From: Escherichia coli
GTDB lineage: Bacteria; Pseudomonadota; Gammaproteobacteria; Enterobacterales; Enterobacteriaceae
Assembly (NCBI RefSeq): GCF_016026235.1
Contig: NZ_CP065613.1
DNA: 64,000 bases
Strand: one strand, 5' to 3'
In this document: positions 50,801-59,800 of the stretch, in pieces
Position numbering within the stretch: the stretch's first letter is position 1
Layout of the letters: each line of letters begins with the position of its first letter
Made by a program: the position numbers

Positions 50801-53800
50801 ACCAGTAAAATGCAAACGACGCACCACGCTGGGAAAATCGCTGCTATTCAGCAGAGTTTTGTACCGAGAATTGTGGCCAGCCACTTATTGCTCTCGCGTA
50901 AGCAGGTATCCCTATCGTTTACCAGTCCAGCACATCTTGTGGTCAGGCAGAAGAAGAGCAAACTGTTACTGGACTCACTGCATGCATGGTGGAGAAAAAT
51001 GCCACGCTATCCAAAAATCCAGACTGGGAGAATGGTTCAGCTGTGTACTGAATCAGTGGGGCGCACTCTGTTATTACAGTGTTGACGGTCAGGCGGAGGC
51101 AGACATAATGCCGCGGAAAAAGCCCTTTGTGCCATCTGTCTCGGAAATAAAAACTTTATGTTCTTCGGCGGCGAGCGCAGTGCACTGTTGTATGGGCTTA
51201 TCGGCACTTGCCTTCTGAACGACATTGATCCGGAAGCGTATCTGCGCCATATCCTGAGCGTACTGCCGGAATAACCTTCCAACCGTATTGATGAACTCCT
51301 GCCATGGAACGTAGCACTCACCAATAAATAAGCGTCAATACGGCACTCCGTTAACGCTGATATGACTTTCCGTGTCAAACCGGAATCTCTAATTTTGACG
51401 ATTTTCTTTTTAGGTTTAATTCCCTGAGGGCGACGTAGCAGTAAATCCGACGGTGAATCACGCTGATATTCGCGGGTTGGATACCGCATTACAGAGGTCC
51501 GTCATATGAGCCTGCCACTTTCTTACGTCGCGAATCAGCTTTGTTCCGCCGTCGCCAAGCGCTAACGTGGGTTACTCTTGTACCGGGCTACGTCGCCTTC
51601 AGGGAACTGGTTATTCTCATTTTTTATTTGTGACATTGTGGTTGTTGTGCGACAGACATTGCTATTCGGCCCATATCCCAGATAAAACCCGCCAGCTCAC
51701 GTGCAACAGCAACAATTGTAATATTGACATTCTTTCCTTTGGCCTGAAGTTTTCGATACCTCTTACAAAGCCTGAGTTGAGCATCCCATGCTCTGTCAAT
51801 GACGGGGCGGGGTAAATTTTCCTGCCTTTTTGTATTGCCGGACTGATGCGTGCCGGATGACGGTAACTCCACGCTGCCTCGACCAATAGCTTTCTGGCAT
51901 AGCTGTTTCCGGCTTTGGTAATGCTGCCCTGATGTCTGCTTCCACCCGATGAATATTCTGATGGCGTGATACCAAACCATGACATCAGTTGTCGTGGATG
52001 TTCAAAACGGGTCAGATCACCCAGTTCAGAAATTAATCCAACCGCAGTAATAAACTGAATCCCTCGCATGGCTTGCAGCGCCTCTACTACCGGATACAGC
52101 CTCCATTCGGTAACGGCCTCCTTCAGGGCGGATTCCAGCCGTTCACATTGTGCCTGCCGGTCTTCTATTGTACGACGGTGTTCGTCAAAAGCTAATTGTC
52201 GCCAGGGACTTTCGAATGAGTATTTGCTGAGCCAGCGTCGGTGTGCAGGGCCCCAATCTGCTCGCCCGACATAATGGACCCCATGAACCAGAAGAAACGA
52301 TTTCAGACGTTGCCTTGCATGCCGTAAATCATCGCGGGCAGATGCCCATGCCCGGGCCAAATCCCGGAATGCCTCATCTTCAATGCCGGGTACGTAGACA
52401 GCAGAAAGATCTCCTGCACGCAGTGAACGCACAAGTCTGATGGCATCACGGCGATCGGTTTTAACCCGCTCCCCCGGTTTTTTCGGGATAAGTGAGGGGG
52501 CGCAGACCATGCAGTCAAAACCGGATTTCACCAGCCGACGATAAAGTCCATAACCACAGGGCCCCGCTTCATAAACGATACTGACCTGCGATGACTTTGA
52601 CCTGAGACGTTTACAAAGATTCTGAATATCAGTAGGTGATGTGCCAATTTTACCCATCAGTTCAACAGGTTCTGAATTGATAGCATAAGCGACAGTAATC
52701 GATTCTTTGTGAACATCTAACCCGACGTACAATGTGTTATTGTTGTTCATGCTGGCCTCCGTGGTGGAAATACCGGGGTGTAGCAACAGCTCACCCATGC
52801 GGCTCTGACAACGATGTTAACCCGCGTTAAATATCCCACGTTGGCCAGCATCTGTCTCACGGAAAGTCATACTGCCTTACCTTTTCTCAGGCTATTTTTG
52901 CTTTTTTTTGCTTTTCCCCGCCACTTTATGGTGATTATCACATCAATATACATCGATAGATATTAACGTAACTGAAGTGAGGTGAAGCATGAAATTTGAA
53001 CGCCATCATGAAATATTGAAACGACTCAGTAAATTCGGTTCTGTAAAAGTATCCGATCTGTCCAATAGCCTCAATGTAACGAAAGAAACTATTCGTTCAG
53101 ATCTTAATGAACTTGCCAGGCTTGGCTATCTGACTCGATGTCATGGCGGTGCTTTTATCGTCCTAGACTCGCTTGATACTATTGCGAAAAATGAAATCGC
53201 TTATGCGCTTGAAAATTATGATACAGCCCAGGGAATAAAAAAAGGCCACTCAACTATGAAAAGTCAAGTATGCGTTATTGGTTCGTTTAATGTTGATATC
53301 ATCAGTTATTTGCCGAGGCTTCCCACTATCGGAGAATCGCTTCTGGCAAGTAATTTTATATTTTCACCGGGGGGAAAAGGCTGTAACCAGGCGCTGGCAG
53401 CAAGCTTTGCCGATACTGATGTTTATTTCATAACAAAAGTAGGTACAGATCACTTTAGTGATTATGCGATCAACTTTATGAATTCGTCTAAGATTTATAA
53501 AAGTATAATTTATCAAACGAAAGAAACGCAAACCGGAACTGCCACGATCCTTGTTAATGAAGGTACTGGCGATAATGTTATTGCGATCTATCCCGGTGCC
53601 AACATGACAATGTCGTCCGATGAAATAACTATTCAGAAAGAAGCGATTATTAATTCTGATGTCATACTTCTGCAGCTCGAAACAAATTATACCGCTCTGC
53701 AACAAGCGATCACATTGGCGCAAAAAAACAGTATCCCGGTCATTATTAACCCGGCACCCTATAATGATATCGTCAACGAACTTATTCAGGATGTTGATTA

Positions 53801-56800: not shown

Positions 56801-59800
56801 CCAGGGGTGCAGGAGACTGCCGATGCCGTCGCTCATCTCATTGAGTTGGGATACGCCGATCAGCTTGTTCTCAGCCACGATGTCTTCCTTAAACAAATGT
56901 GGGCTAAAAATGGCGGTAATGGCTGGGGATTTGTTCCAGATGTTTTTCTGGCCTATCTGGCGGAGCGCGGCGTCGATAAAACGATCCTCAAAAAACTCTG
57001 TATCGATAATCCCGGACGATTATTGACCGCATAAAACCATTATCCCCCGGCACATTGCGCCGGGGGATGTCAATTAATACCCCGCCGTTAAATCATCCAC
57101 CAAGCGCGAGTCGGATGCGCCGTACAACTCACCATCCGACCCAACCATAATGCTTTGCGTGCTGCCCAACACCTCATTCAGCGCCACTTTCTGACCTTTT
57201 GCTTCCAGCAGCTTGAGCGTATCCGGACTAACCCCTTTTCAACACGCAGCTCGTCCGGCAACCACTGATGGTGGAAACGAGGCGTATTGGTCGCTTCGGC
57301 AACATTCATTCCACAATTGATGCTGTTCACCACCATTTGCAGCACGGTAGTGATGATCCAGCTACCGGTAACAAAGTGAGTACATAAAGGCCATACTGTC
57401 ACGAACAGTGCAAAAGTGGCTCTTCCGCAACCTAGGTGAAGATTTTCATGCCAGTGGACTCATTACCCTCCGCCTAAGTAGTTCAAGTCCGGCTCGACCA
57501 TACATCTGGCGTATCAGCACCTTCAGGCGATTTACATGACCTTCGACAACACCAGTACTCCAGCGACTGCTGATTGCCTCACGTATAGCCGCAGCATCAG
57601 CTTCCATCCCCGCAGCTACGCACCGAAGTTCTGCTGAGCCGCTTTCGTGGACCCGAGTGAACCAGCTGCTTAGCTGTGATTTATTTTAGGTTTTCAGAAT
57701 ACGGTAGAACTCGAGTACCAGTTGCTGCGCTATTTTCAACTCCGGTTCTTTTTCACACATCAGACTAATAAATCGGAAAGCATAATTTTCTTCACCCCTG
57801 ATTATTCTCCGGGGCATCAACCAGCGGCTTACCCGGGACACTGAAGGAAGTCTTGCGGCAGTAGTAACCGGTGGGATCCAGCCTTTACGCCATTTGGCAA
57901 CAGCATCCCTGACGATGGTTTCACTGCCTGTAACCCCCCTGGCCACCATTTCCCGCCATATCCGGCCGGAGTTATAATTACCACATTCTCGTTGCTCTTT
58001 TAACCACTCCCTCCATGGGTCCAGAAGCCCTCGCTTTGGAGGCCTAGTTGACATTTCAGGGAATGTTCCTGAACCCACCCAGCGACTGACTGTCACTCGC
58101 GACAGGCCTGTAATACGGGATATTTCCCTGAAACTACATCCCTTGTTATGCAGGGCCATAACCTCTGTCCAACGCTGATGCCGTTTTTTGCGGGTGTGCT
58201 GTTTAAGGCGTTCCAGACGACGGAGCGATGCTACAGGCACAGATATTTCTGGCTCAGGTGATTTCTTCAGTGATAACTCTCTGACAACAAGACGTATCAG
58301 AGGCATATGTCTGTACATCATTCGTTCAGGCTCATCACCAATATTTTTTAGCAGGTGCCATCGATAGGCCACCTGTCTGGCCTGAGGTGCACCTTCACGT
58401 GCTGCTGTCGCATAGACTCCACTGCGATCACGCGATACAACCTGTATTTCCGGACCTTTTCTGAACCAGGTCGCCAGCGTACGCTGATCACGGCCGGGAA
58501 GCAGGACCAGGGGGCGGTGAGTATCAAGATTGAATATTAACGTACCGTAACGGTGGCCCCAATGCCACGCCCACTCATCAATACCGACATGAGGCGCGCC
58601 TGACTGTTTCGTCTCCGGGGTATTGATAAGCCTGCGAAGAAGAGTATCAGCACTGCAACGGAGACCCGCTGCCGTTGCAGCCCGTTTTCCAGCCTCACCT
58701 CCAGCTATTAATCCCAGTTGACGTTGTTAATTTTGTAACGCCTGTGAAGACTGCTGGTGTGAACTGGCGAAGGGAGCAAGCGACTCGGCAAAAATTTTAC
58801 GTGACAAGCCGGGTTACGGCAGTACCAGTGGCGGACGGAAAATACAAGCCATAGCGTCTGCCCTGAGCAGGGTAGATGCTGTATCCGGCGCCGACGACAA
58901 CTATGAACAGAGTCGCTACGCTTAAAGCATTCAGGACATTGTGCTGTTTTGCGTTTTCCGTGGAGATGGAGGGTTATACCGTCAGAGCTAATAATTTGTC
59001 GACTGCATCGCCATCCGCAAGGTAACTTTAGAAGTGTCTTAAGAGAGTGCATTGCGTTGCCCATTAGACTGGCCCCCTGAATCTCCAGACAACCAATATC
59101 ACTTAAATAAGTGATAGTCTTAATACTAGTTTTTAGACTAGTCATTGGAGAGCAGATGATTGATGTCTTAGGACCGGAGAAACGCAGACGGCGTACTACA
59201 CAGGAAAAGATCGCTATTGTTCAGCAGAGTTTTGAACCGGGAATGACGGTCTCCCTTGTTGCCCGGCAACACGGTGTGGCAGCCAGCCAGTTATTTCTCT
59301 GGCGCAAGCAATACCAGGAGGGAAGTCTTACTGCTGTGGCCGCAGGAGAGCAGGTCGTTCCTGCCTCTGAACTTGCTGCTGCCATGAAGCAGATTAAAGA
59401 ACTCCAGCGCCTGCTCGGCAAAAAAACGATGGAAAATGAACTCCTTAAAGAAGCCGTTGAATACGGGCGTGCAAAAAAGTGGATAGCGCACGCGCCCTTA
59501 TTGCCCGGGGATGGGGAGTAAGCTTAGTCAGCCGTTGTCTCCGGGTGTCGCGTGCGCAGTTGCACGTAATTCTCAGACGAACCGATAACTGGAAAGATGG
59601 TCGCCGCAGCCGTCACTCAGATGATACGGATGTGCTTCTCCGTATACACCATGTTATCGGAGAGCTGCCCACGTATGGTTATCGTCGGGTATGGGCGCTG
59701 CTTCGCAGACAGGCCGAACTTGATGGTATGCCTGCGATCAATGCCAAACGTGTTTACCGGATCATGCGCCAGAATGCGCTGTTGCTTGAGCGAAAAACCG

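What the first reader, a model, noticed from the sequence alone, without database searches (positions are those of the whole stretch)
52989..57430. Low-GC four-gene island: DeoR-HTH::PfkB kinase fusion, GATase1-like protein, DMT transporter and phosphotriesterase-family hydrolase, beside a ggt remnant
Between cobU and the IS nest lies a compact, co-oriented, visibly AT-richer cassette with no counterpart in E. coli K-12 at this locus as I recall it (K-12 has IS5/CP4-44 here). The first gene fuses a DeoR DNA-binding domain directly to a ribokinase-like sugar kinase, replacing the usual DeoR effector domain, which suggests a one-component regulator that binds or phosphorylates its own inducer. 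The last gene is a phosphotriesterase-family enzyme; characterised members of this family include lactonases acting on phosphorylated sugar lactones encoded next to kinases. Together with the transporter and the GATase1-like protein this looks like an uncharacterised import-phosphorylation-hydrolysis pathway. The abutting ggt fragment suggests the ancestral island was larger.
Basis: partly seen in the sequence, partly recalled or inferred. Interest (0 to 1): 0.85.

Follow-up and report, generated by a model that had tools for sequence, protein, structure and literature searches.

The report
E. coli copy of rikA gene cluster
This is the E. coli version of a four-gene cluster already described in Salmonella (rikA ribose kinase, an unknown ThuA-like enzyme, a transporter and a metal-dependent hydrolase); its true substrate is still unknown, and in this strain the transporter gene is broken by a stop codon.

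Summary
The four co-oriented, AT-richer genes are real, but they are not new. They are the orthologue (about 75% DNA and 80-83% protein identity, same order) of Salmonella STM3547-STM3550. A June 2026 paper (PMC13432705) showed STM3547/RikA to be a ribose kinase and listed the cluster as conserved in Escherichia. Close homologues of two other proteins already have solved structures: STM3548 (PDB 2GK3) and Pmi1525 (3RHG), a reported esterase.

The cassette is in about 37% of complete E. coli genomes and is absent from K-12. In this window the transporter gene carries an in-frame TAG (W203*), an allele found in about 29% of carriers.

The ggt fragment is the ancestral neighbour, not part of the pathway. 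Salmonella and Citrobacter have full-length ggt at the same junction; other genera have none.

New here:
- The DeoR HTH is under purifying selection, is invariant at key residues in 97 homologues, and has its own conserved Shine-Dalgarno sequence.
- It is preceded by a T-rich direct repeat conserved in 19 loci from six genera.
- Where the kinase lacks the HTH, a separate LacI gene often appears instead.
- In 80 species the ThuA-like protein travels with a ribokinase-like kinase, an interchangeable hydrolase and a transporter.

The physiological substrate remains unknown.

The parts
52895..52914 (+). T-rich direct repeat TTTTTGCTTT/TTTTTGCTTT, a candidate operator overlapping the -35 region of the cassette promoter
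   Evidence: It occurs once in the 64-kb window with 0 expected by chance. It occurs once per locus, about 94 nt upstream of the HTH-fused kinase gene, in 19 loci from E. coli, Salmonella, Citrobacter, Klebsiella, Budvicia and Providencia, and in none of 78 other loci. Proteus has a one-mismatch variant, and Proteus and Providencia carry two tandem copies. The surrounding intergenic DNA is otherwise unconserved. Function is inferred, not shown.
52933..52942 (+). Conserved nAnnAT + CACA block (GATTATCACA), a candidate -10 hexamer and start region
   Evidence: It sits at a fixed position in seven genera, with A2 and T6 of the hexamer and the following CACA invariant. The simple consensus promoter scan did not call it. 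This is inference.
52977..52985 (+). Shine-Dalgarno sequence GTGAGGTGA for the annotated Met1 of the fusion protein
   Evidence: GTGAGGT is invariant (full 9-mer GTGAGGTRA) 3-4 nt before the ATG in E. coli, Salmonella, Klebsiella and Budvicia.
52989..54203 (+). rikA orthologue: DeoR-type HTH (aa 5-56), linker, and PfkB ribokinase domain (aa 92-382)
   Evidence: Domains come from Pfam. The protein is 80-82% identical to Salmonella proteins encoded in the STM3547-type locus. Ribose-binding and catalytic residues aligned to E. coli RbsK are kept: N101, D103, G128-G129-K130, N133, E231 and D343. D343 is the residue whose D343A change abolished RikA activity. HTH codons 1-60 give dN/dS 0.13-0.29.
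53256..53258 (+). Internal Met90 codon, a possible second start giving a kinase-only isoform
   Evidence: The Salmonella protein purified by a C-terminal tag was about 35 kDa, consistent with a start at M90 (PMC13432705). The position is Met in 81 of 97 full-length homologues. An AAAGG-type purine run lies 10-11 nt upstream in four genera.
54217..54975 (+). GATase1_like (PF07090) protein, a ThuA-like fold of unknown activity
55032..55997 (+). DMT_YdcZ-type transporter gene, a pseudogene in this window (in-frame TAG at 55638-55640, W203*)
   Evidence: The intact 321-323-aa orthologues in other E. coli, Salmonella, Klebsiella and Budvicia have Trp here and carry PF04657. The TAG allele is exact in 596 E. 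coli records and the TGG allele in 1418 of 2038.
56000..57034 (+). Phosphotriesterase-family (amidohydrolase superfamily) hydrolase, orthologue of STM3550 and Pmi1525
   Evidence: Pfam PTE E 2.1e-46. It matches PDB 3RHG/4QSF Pmi1525 at E 1.2e-174 over the full length, then Rsp3690 (3K2G) and PTER-type 9EFA. Motifs at the expected metal-ligand positions are present: H23-x-H25, E166 (GEIG), H199, H229 and D294 (assigned by motif, not structurally checked).
57042..57068 (.). GC-rich hairpin between the convergent hydrolase gene and the ggt remnant, probably a shared terminator
   Evidence: It is a 12-bp stem with 9 GC pairs. It lies in the 39-nt gap between the two stop codons, the same arrangement as the 44-nt gap in Salmonella.
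57074..57367 (-). 3' remnant of a gamma-glutamyltransferase gene, the ancestral neighbour and not part of the pathway
   Evidence: NCBIfam ggt E 2.6e-25; RefSeq annotates it as a frameshifted partial gene. It is colinear with full-length ggt in Salmonella and Citrobacter. It is about 91% identical to native E. coli ggt and 80-83% identical to Salmonella and Citrobacter ggt.

Best explanation
The region is the E. coli orthologue of the Salmonella rikA-STM3548-STM3549-STM3550 cluster. It is a small catabolic or salvage operon found in many Enterobacterales, with relatives in Succinivibrionaceae and Bacillales.

**Proposed working**
1. A transporter (DMT_YdcZ here) takes up a small compound that is still unidentified. 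It probably contains a ribose-like sugar joined to another group through an amide or ester bond.
2. The metal-dependent PTE-family hydrolase and the ThuA-like GATase1_like protein take the compound apart.
3. The RikA kinase domain phosphorylates the released ribose to ribose-5-phosphate.
4. The full-length RikA protein, through its N-terminal DeoR HTH, probably represses the operon by binding the conserved T-rich direct repeat over the promoter. The kinase domain serves as the sugar-sensing module in place of the usual DeoR effector domain.
5. A shorter kinase-only form may also be made from Met90.

**Shown versus inferred**
- Shown elsewhere: ribose kinase activity of the Salmonella orthologue, and esterase activity of the Proteus orthologue of the hydrolase.
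- Shown here: orthology, conservation of the HTH and of the upstream repeat, and the recurring gene partnership.
- Inferred: the nature of the substrate, the roles of the two hydrolase-like proteins, and DNA binding.

**In this strain** the transporter gene has a nonsense mutation, so uptake through it, and probably the pathway, is likely lost. The cassette reached the cobU-side island from a ggt-adjacent ancestral site in an Escherichia-like genome.
For: **Orthology**
- Same four genes in the same order and orientation as Salmonella, 75.9% DNA identity over 4.5 kb running into ggt.
- Protein identities: 80-82% for RikA, 83% for the GATase1_like protein.
- The paper lists Escherichia among genera carrying the cluster.

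**Kinase**
- RikA has Km 2.0 mM for ribose. Chromosomal rikA alone supports growth on ribose, and D343A is inactive.
- D343 and the RbsK ribose-binding residues are conserved here and in 97 homologues.

**HTH is functional**
- dN/dS is 0.13-0.29 over codons 1-60.
- E33, T34, R36, D38, L39, R50, G53 and G54 are invariant in 97 homologues of 46-100% identity.
- Met1 has a conserved Shine-Dalgarno sequence.
- A co-oriented LacI gene occurs in 0 of 24 fused-kinase loci and 22 of 46 stand-alone-kinase loci, Fisher p = 1.8e-5.
- The T-rich repeat is at a fixed distance in 19 loci of six genera and nowhere else in 97 loci.

**Pathway logic**
- In 80 species the GATase1_like gene is co-oriented with a PfkB kinase (70 of 80).
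- It travels with one hydrolase type: PTE in 31 loci, M20 in 44, proline-iminopeptidase-type alpha/beta hydrolase in 4.
- It travels with one transporter type: DMT in 25 loci, ribose-type ABC in about 48, amino-acid permease in 4.
- The stand-alone kinase in Neobacillus passes the ribokinase equivalog cut-off (306 against 299.65).
- Related HTH-PfkB genes sit beside a RihC-like nucleoside hydrolase plus a nucleoside transporter, or beside an ADP-ribosylglycohydrolase-family gene plus an ABC transporter. Both are ribose-releasing contexts.
- The nearest characterised PTE-family relatives are esterases or amidases: Pmi1525 and Rsp3690, and PTER, an N-acetyltaurine hydrolase (PMC11374699).

**Nonsense allele**.
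Against: - In Salmonella, the only RikA species recovered from a construct with the native ribosome-binding site began at about Met90 and lacked the HTH. RikA 90-404 alone supports growth on ribose.
- RikA's kcat/Km for ribose is roughly 50-fold below that of RbsK. The authors suggest ribose may be a side activity and the real substrate something else.
- No DNA-binding data exist for any HTH-PfkB protein in the searchable literature.
- No activity is known for any PF07090 protein.
- The hydrolase activities reported for Pmi1525 are on artificial esters.
- One homologous HTH-PfkB context (Rahnella: DHDPS-like aldolase, DUF386, MFS) does not suggest ribose.
- The upstream repeat could be a promoter UP-like element rather than an operator.
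Confidence: 0.6

Rival explanations
1. The kinase's real substrate is the imported compound itself or a close derivative, as in the fructoselysine (FrlD) and fructose-asparagine (FraD) pathways. Ribose phosphorylation is then a side activity. The hydrolase and the GATase1_like protein act on the phosphorylated intermediate.
For: - RikA's kcat/Km for ribose is about 50-fold lower than RbsK's and similar to DeoK's, for which ribose is a side substrate. The authors raise this possibility themselves.
- The window protein scores 284.2 on the ribokinase equivalog model, just under the 299.65 cut-off.
- Bacillales clusters often carry a second PfkB kinase next to a BtpA/SgcQ gene.
Against: - All RbsK ribose-contacting residues are retained and invariant across 97 homologues.
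- RikA's Km for ribose equals that of RbsK in the same assay.
- Homologous HTH-PfkB genes sit beside enzymes that release free ribose.
- No deglycase-type (SIS) gene is present in any of the 80 clusters, though this rests on seed-based annotation.
Confidence: 0.25
2. The N-terminal HTH is a non-functional evolutionary leftover or an annotation artefact. The gene product is only the 315-aa kinase starting at Met90, and the cluster is regulated by something else.
For: - A 35-kDa product with mass-spectrometric identification was recovered in Salmonella, and RikA 90-404 complements.
- Met90 is conserved in 81 of 97 homologues.
- A purine-rich run lies 10-11 nt upstream of the codon.
Against: - dN/dS is 0.13-0.29 in the HTH codons, and the DNA-contact residues are invariant across 46-100% identity.
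- A strong conserved Shine-Dalgarno sequence precedes Met1.
- The fusion persists in at least five different gene contexts.
- Its distribution is complementary to that of LacI.
- The C-terminal-tag purification could not distinguish internal initiation from cleavage in the poorly conserved linker.
Confidence: 0.1
3. In this strain the cassette is simply decaying cargo of an IS-ridden island and does nothing.
For: - The transporter carries W203*.
- IS elements flank the cassette on both sides.
- In other strains IS3 or IS1 elements split the GATase1_like or hydrolase genes.
- The cassette is absent from about 63% of complete E. coli genomes.
Against: - Three of the four genes are intact here. 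They are 99.4-99.8% identical in DNA to copies in strains with an intact transporter.
- About 70% of carriers keep all four genes open.
- The promoter and repeat block is untouched by the IS110 insertion.
- This rival concerns the state in this strain, not what the cassette is, so it is compatible with the best explanation.
Confidence: 0.4

Closest known systems
Salmonella enterica rikA (STM3547)-STM3548-STM3549-STM3550 cluster (McCormick, Jabbar and Escalante-Semerena, Mol Microbiol 2026, PMC13432705)
   Same: - Same four genes in the same order and orientation.
- Protein identities of 80-83%.
- Same 404-aa HTH+PfkB architecture, with Met90 and catalytic Asp343.
- Same convergent junction with ggt.
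- Same upstream T-rich repeat.
   Different: - Here the cassette sits in an IS-rich island beside cobU rather than between yhhY-type genes and a full-length ggt.
- Only a 3' stub of ggt remains.
- The transporter carries W203*.
- An IS110-family element lies 20 nt upstream of the repeat.
Pmi1525 of Proteus mirabilis (PDB 3RHG, 4QSF; 'methylphosphonate esterase', Biochemistry 2015, cited in PMC5341072) and Rsp3690 of Rhodobacter sphaeroides (3K2G)
   Same: - The fourth protein aligns with Pmi1525 end to end at about 80% identity (E 1.2e-174), and with Rsp3690 at E 3.8e-68.
- Proteus carries the same four-gene cluster.
   Different: - Only activities on artificial esters are reported for these enzymes, and the natural substrate is unknown.
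- The original papers could not be read here.
Paralogous cassette beside the ttr genes (SPI-2 side) of Salmonella and Citrobacter, including STM1381 (PDB 3SOZ)
   Same: An HTH_DeoR-PfkB gene (408 aa) is followed by a GATase1_like gene (245 aa), then a hydrolase and a transporter, all co-oriented.
   Different: - The hydrolase is a proline-iminopeptidase-family alpha/beta hydrolase and the transporter is an APC amino-acid permease.
- It lacks Met90 and the T-rich repeat.
- It has a CRP-like site upstream instead.
Amadori-compound and nucleoside salvage operons that combine a PfkB kinase, a hydrolase or deglycase, and a transporter (frl, fra, yegTUV, yeiCN; recalled from general knowledge)
   Same: The overall logic is the same: one transporter, one PfkB kinase, and one or two bond-cleaving enzymes under a dedicated regulator.
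   Different: - None of these contains a PF07090 or PTE-family protein.
- Their regulators are separate proteins.
- No SIS-type deglycase is present here.
Enzyme-regulator fusions such as BirA and NadR, and E. coli YeiI (HTH + PfkB; NCBIfam PRK09954)
   Same: A DNA-binding HTH is joined to a small-molecule kinase or ligase domain that could sense the pathway metabolite. PRK09954 matches weakly (E 1.7e-11).
   Different: The HTH here is DeoR-type. DNA binding is untested for this family, and the resemblance is recalled, not tested.

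Membership tests
rikA-STM3548-STM3549-STM3550 cluster | Four co-oriented genes in the order HTH-PfkB, GATase1_like, DMT_YdcZ, PTE | tested here: met
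   Window ORFs compared with the Salmonella locus L003. Colinear blastn gives 75.9% identity over 4479 nt.
rikA-STM3548-STM3549-STM3550 cluster | All four genes intact | tested here: not met
   The DMT gene has TAG at 55638-55640 (W203*). It is intact in about 70% of E. coli carriers.
rikA-STM3548-STM3549-STM3550 cluster | Ribose kinase activity of the first gene product | not testable with these tools
   Shown for the Salmonella protein only. Here only the catalytic D343 and the ribose-binding residues are seen to be conserved.
PfkB-family ribokinase (TIGR02152) | Score above the curated equivalog cut-off | tested here: not met
   284.2 bits against a cut-off of 299.65. This is narrowly below, and the N-terminal HTH is extra.
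PfkB-family ribokinase (TIGR02152) | Ribose-binding Asn/Asp, GG-K-N motif, Glu and catalytic Asp of E. coli RbsK | tested here: met
   N101, D103, G128-G129-K130, N133, E231 and D343 align with RbsK N14, D16, G41-G42-K43, N46, E143 and D255. All except E231 were counted and found invariant or nearly so in 97 homologues; E231 is conserved in the 8-sequence alignment.
DeoR-family transcriptional regulator | N-terminal HTH_DeoR domain | tested here: met
   PF08220 E 4.9e-15, residues 5-56.
DeoR-family transcriptional regulator | C-terminal DeoR-type sugar-phosphate effector domain | tested here: not met
   The Pfam scan finds PfkB in its place and reports no DeoR C-terminal domain.
DeoR-family transcriptional regulator | Sequence-specific DNA binding and regulation of the adjacent operon | not testable with these tools
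   Only indirect support: a conserved repeat at a fixed distance and a distribution complementary to LacI.
Class I glutamine amidotransferase | Cys nucleophile at the 'elbow' after the central strand (Cys-His-Glu triad) | tested here: not met
   The position I take to be the nucleophile elbow, judged from the sequence pattern, is G122-G123-Y124 and is invariant in 23 diverse homologues. The fold is nearest to ThuA-like proteins.
GATase1_like, PF07090 | Full-length match to the family model | tested here: met
   E 1.1e-111, model positions 1-245 of 247. PDB 2GK3 matches at E 6.9e-145.
Phosphotriesterase family (PF02126), amidohydrolase superfamily | Family match and binuclear-metal ligand motifs (HxH, bridging Glu/Lys, His, His, Asp) | tested here: met
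   Pfam E 2.1e-46. Motifs present: H23-x-H25, GEIG (E166), NIHM (H199), LAHSD (H229) and LSHD (D294). Ligand roles are assigned by motif position, not structurally verified.
   42 bits against a cut-off of 630. The closest solved relative is Pmi1525, a reported esterase.
DMT_YdcZ transporter (PF04657) | Family match over a full-length protein of about 320 aa | tested here: inconclusive
   The orthologues carry PF04657 in the precomputed Pfam labels, and the E. coli intact allele differs from the window at only two residues. The window copy itself was not scanned against Pfam, and NCBIfam gives no hit.

The most novel reading that the evidence does not exclude
RikA is a true one-component kinase-repressor. 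One gene yields two products: a full-length form that binds the T-rich direct repeat, and a kinase-only form starting at Met90. The cluster it controls belongs to a widespread, unrecognised pathway in Enterobacterales, Succinivibrionaceae and Bacillales. That pathway would salvage a ribose-amide or ribose-ester conjugate, with the extremely conserved ThuA-like PF07090 protein carrying out a new reaction.
Probability: 0.3. Interest if true: 0.6.

Novelty: already known. Interest (0 to 1): 0.33.

Why it matters
The cluster is common: about a third of E. coli, most Salmonella, Proteus and Providencia, and many soil Bacillales. It includes one of the most conserved proteins of unknown function seen here, at about 60-65% identity between E. 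coli and Bacillus. Two of its proteins have close homologues with crystal structures but no known natural substrate.

Identifying the substrate would assign function to PF07090 and to the Pmi1525 branch of the phosphotriesterase family. Showing that the HTH-kinase fusion regulates its own operon would add a clean example of an enzyme doubling as the sensor domain of a repressor.

For this particular window the practical message is modest. It holds a known accessory cassette with a broken transporter, not a new system.

Tried and rejected
- **Sequencing-error or split-gene explanation for the fusion.** Rejected: the identical protein occurs in thousands of sequences, and the architecture is conserved down to 46% identity.
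- **TAG in the transporter as a recoding signal.** Rejected: other alleles and all orthologues have TGG (Trp) there.
- **ggt as a functional partner (gamma-glutamyl compounds).** Rejected: ggt is adjacent only in Salmonella and Citrobacter among the 80 loci.
- **Phosphorylated-sugar lactonase assignment.** The model scores far below its cut-off.
- **True glutamine amidotransferase.** The nucleophile Cys is missing.
- **RNA element in the leader or cassette.** No Rfam match at E <= 1.
- **Consensus promoter scan.** It found nothing above chance and missed the conserved block.
- **Inverted or direct repeat search within single loci.** Only the 10-nt T-rich repeat held up across genera.
- **Reading the original Pmi1525 and Rsp3690 papers.** They are not held, so their results are cited second-hand through PMC5341072.
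- **Literature search for PF07090, 2GK3 or STM1381 function, and for HTH_DeoR-PfkB regulators.** Nothing relevant was found.

Full report
**1. What is in the sequence**

The window holds four co-oriented reading frames on the + strand.
- 52989-54203 encodes 404 aa: a DeoR-type HTH (residues 5-56, E 4.9e-15) followed by a PfkB kinase domain (92-382, E 1.2e-64).
- 54217-54975 encodes 252 aa and matches GATase1_like PF07090 end to end (E 1.1e-111).
- 55032-55997 is a single frame for a transporter, interrupted by TAG at 55638-55640.
- 56000-57034 encodes 344 aa of the phosphotriesterase family (E 2.1e-46).

A GC-rich hairpin (57042-57068) separates the last gene from a convergent 3' fragment of ggt at about 57074-57367. 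The cassette is 43.9% GC, against 49.7% for the adjacent cbl-nac-ldtA-cobTSU genes.

Upstream, cobU ends at 49419. IS debris and an IS110-family element (transposase 51662-52798) follow it. Downstream lie ISL3, IS21 and IS3 remnants. K-12 MG1655 has IS5/CP4-44 after cobU and no cassette.

**2. It is a known cluster**

The cassette is present in about 1900-2040 of 5426 complete E. coli genomes, normally at this cobU-side position.

Its proteins have close, already studied relatives.
- The second protein matches PDB 2GK3 (STM3548 of Salmonella) at E 6.9e-145, and 3SOZ (STM1381) at E 1.1e-109.
- The fourth aligns over its whole length, at about 80% identity, with Pmi1525 of Proteus mirabilis (3RHG/4QSF, E 1.2e-174). 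The next matches are Rsp3690 and a PTER-type protein.
- A later paper cites Pmi1525 and Rsp3690 as metal-stimulated esterases of the PTE family (PMC5341072). I could not read the original papers.

A paper of June 2026 (PMC13432705) characterises STM3547, renamed RikA, as a ribose kinase.
- Chromosomal rikA alone supports growth on ribose.
- Km for ribose is 2.0 mM, equal to RbsK in the same assay, but kcat/Km is about 50-fold lower.
- D343A is inactive, and other pentoses are poor substrates.
- The paper notes the downstream genes STM3548-3550 and finds the cluster conserved in Citrobacter, Escherichia, Budvicia and Proteus.
- It concludes that the four genes may form a pathway for an unknown substrate.

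I confirmed orthology directly. A Salmonella locus encoding the 80%-identical protein has the same four genes in the same order. It is followed by a full-length convergent ggt, then yhhA- and ugpQ-type genes. The window aligns colinearly to this locus at 75.9% identity over 4479 nt, running into ggt. Budvicia and Klebsiella carry the same four genes without ggt.

**3. State of the cassette in this window**

The TAG is a TGG-to-TAG change (Trp203 to stop). Other E. coli, Salmonella, Klebsiella and Budvicia have Trp at this position within an otherwise almost identical protein of 321-323 aa. Searching 81-mers centred on the codon gives the TAG allele exactly in 596 records and the TGG allele exactly in 1418 of 2038 records. 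RefSeq annotates the gene as intact in two TGG strains I sampled.

About 29% of carriers, including this window's lineage, therefore have a truncated transporter. Other strains show IS3 or IS1 insertions in the second or fourth gene. The cassette is dispensable and decays in some lineages.

**4. The ggt remnant**

The remnant lies 39 nt beyond the hydrolase stop codon, across a hairpin. Salmonella has the same arrangement with a 44-nt gap. The remnant is about 91% identical to native E. coli ggt and 80-83% identical to Salmonella and Citrobacter ggt.

Among 80 loci from different species, ggt is adjacent only in Salmonella and Citrobacter. The simplest reading is that the cassette sat beside ggt in the common ancestor of the Escherichia-Salmonella-Citrobacter group. 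The copy now beside cobU was carried there, with a stub of ggt, from an Escherichia-like genome. Nothing links ggt functionally to the cassette.

**5. Is the HTH-kinase fusion real?**

[quoted passage not shown] That size fits a start at Met90. RikA 90-404 also complements. The authors say more work is needed.

The comparative evidence gathered here points towards a functional HTH.
- All full-length homologues from 100% down to 46% identity keep the HTH_DeoR+PfkB architecture, across more than ten genera. They do so in at least five different gene contexts.
- Codons 1-60 give dN/dS of 0.13-0.29 against Salmonella, Klebsiella and Budvicia.
- In 97 full-length homologues the residues E33, T34, R36, D38, L39, R50, G53 and G54 are invariant. 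Mean conservation of the HTH (0.62) is close to that of the kinase (0.68), while the linker is lower at 0.39.
- Met1 is preceded by a conserved GTGAGGTRA Shine-Dalgarno sequence.

Met90 is itself Met in 81 of 97 homologues, with a purine-rich run 10-11 nt upstream. Two products from one gene is therefore a reasonable reconciliation. Cleavage in the linker would also fit the experiment.

**6. A conserved upstream element**

The intergenic DNA upstream of the first gene is unconserved except for one block. The block contains three parts.
- A T-rich direct repeat, TTTTTGYTTT TTTTTGSTTT, at window 52895-52914.
- TTTAYGG at 52925-52931.
- nAnnAT followed by CACA at 52933-52942.

The 20-mer occurs once in the window, with 0 expected by chance. 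It occurs once per locus, about 94 nt before the start codon, in 19 loci of E. coli, Salmonella, Citrobacter, Klebsiella, Budvicia and Providencia. It is absent from the 78 other loci held. Proteus has a one-mismatch form, and Proteus and Providencia carry two tandem copies. A 59%-identical HTH-PfkB paralogue with different downstream genes has a similar T-rich motif and ATCACA at the same distance.

The nAnnAT position fits a -10 hexamer, and the repeat would overlap the -35 region. This is the expected place for a repressor site. From general knowledge, some DeoR-family proteins bind T-rich direct repeats, and the HTH scores best against AgaR in NCBIfam.

The paper does not mention an operator or autoregulation. 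The IS110 element in this window ends about 20 nt upstream of the repeat and leaves the block intact. No Rfam family matches the region.

**7. The wider gene family and what it suggests**

A scan of one genome per species returned 80 loci. I annotated them with seed proteins. The PF07090 gene is co-oriented with the following partners.

| Partner | Loci |
|---|---|
| PfkB kinase, all | 70 of 80 |
| PfkB kinase, HTH-fused | 24 |
| PfkB kinase, stand-alone | 46 |
| PTE-family hydrolase | 31 |
| M20 (ArgE/DapE-type) hydrolase | 44 |
| Proline-iminopeptidase-family alpha/beta hydrolase | 4 |
| DMT_YdcZ transporter | 25 |
| Ribose-type (RbsBAC-like) ABC transporter | about 48 |
| Amino-acid permease | 4 |

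A co-oriented LacI gene is present in 22 of 46 loci with a stand-alone kinase and in 0 of 24 with the fused kinase (p = 1.8e-5). This is as expected if the fused HTH does the regulator's job.

The stand-alone kinase of Neobacillus passes the ribokinase equivalog cut-off. Other HTH-PfkB genes lie next to a RihC-like nucleoside hydrolase plus a nucleoside transporter. Others lie next to an ADP-ribosylglycohydrolase-family gene plus an ABC transporter.

The interchangeable hydrolases are all of kinds that cleave amide or ester bonds. The nearest characterised non-bacterial relative of the PTE-family protein is PTER, an N-acetyltaurine and N-acetyl-beta-alanine amidohydrolase (PMC11374699, PMC13311154).

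Together these point to uptake of a small ribose-like conjugate, cleavage of an amide or ester bond, and phosphorylation of the released ribose. The identity of the compound and the role of PF07090 remain unknown. One homologous context (Rahnella: aldolase, DUF386, MFS) does not fit a ribose theme.

**8. Verdict**

Its claimed novelty, however, is gone. One gene product is biochemically characterised, close homologues of two others have solved structures (one also with reported in-vitro esterase activity), and the Escherichia copy is already noted in print. In this window the transporter is a pseudogene.

The points that go beyond the literature are:
- purifying selection on the HTH;
- the conserved T-rich repeat;
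- the complementarity between LacI and the fused HTH;
- the recurrent kinase + PF07090 + hydrolase + transporter module across phyla;
- the allele frequencies of W203*;
- the origin of the ggt stub.

I rate the interest as moderate to low for the finding as given. The kinase-repressor and unknown-pathway reading is the part still worth an experiment.

Noticed in passing
window 51500-52875 (transposase ORF 51662-52798, - strand): An IS110-family element, annotated ISSso6-like in a near-identical E. coli locus, is inserted about 20 nt upstream of the conserved T-rich repeat of the cassette promoter. Most other E. coli have an IS66 remnant here instead. It could alter expression of the cassette.
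   Followed up: partly
L011 5763-10055; also L043, L044, L049, L056: A paralogous cassette lies next to the tetrathionate reductase genes of Salmonella and Citrobacter. It comprises HTH_DeoR-PfkB (408 aa), GATase1_like (245 aa, STM1381-type), a proline-iminopeptidase-family hydrolase and an amino-acid permease. Its upstream region lacks the T-rich repeat but has a CRP-like TGTGATTCATTTCACC.
   Followed up: partly
L005/L006 8001-11532; L008 8001-14904; L009 8001-12238: The HTH_DeoR-PfkB fusion also heads other small operons: with a RihC-like nucleoside hydrolase and a NupC-type transporter; with an ABC sugar transporter and an ADP-ribosylglycohydrolase-family protein; and with a DHDPS-like aldolase, DUF386 and an MFS transporter.
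   Followed up: partly
L012, L037, L039, L042, L047, L050 and others (Bacillales loci): Many Bacillales versions of the cluster carry a BtpA/SgcQ-family gene paired with a second PfkB kinase, and often two M20 hydrolases. This suggests a longer pathway there than in Enterobacterales.
   Followed up: no
L096 13207-15301 (E. coli NCTC9008); L002 9201-11571 (E. coli RMDEC465): In other E. coli strains IS3-family elements split the GATase1_like gene or the hydrolase gene, and IS1 copies occur in further strains. The cassette is a frequent IS target.
   Followed up: no
window 57446-60384: Downstream of the ggt stub lie a degraded ISL3 transposase gene (ORFs 57686-58372 and 58708-59145, - strand) and an IS3-family element (ORFs 59111-59521 and 59479-60384, + strand).
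   Followed up: no
L038, L040, L048, L051 (Succinivibrionaceae): Gut Succinivibrionaceae carry the cluster in a different order (GATase1_like, DMT, PTE, then a stand-alone PfkB without an HTH). The HTH fusion is therefore not needed for the enzymatic part.
   Followed up: no
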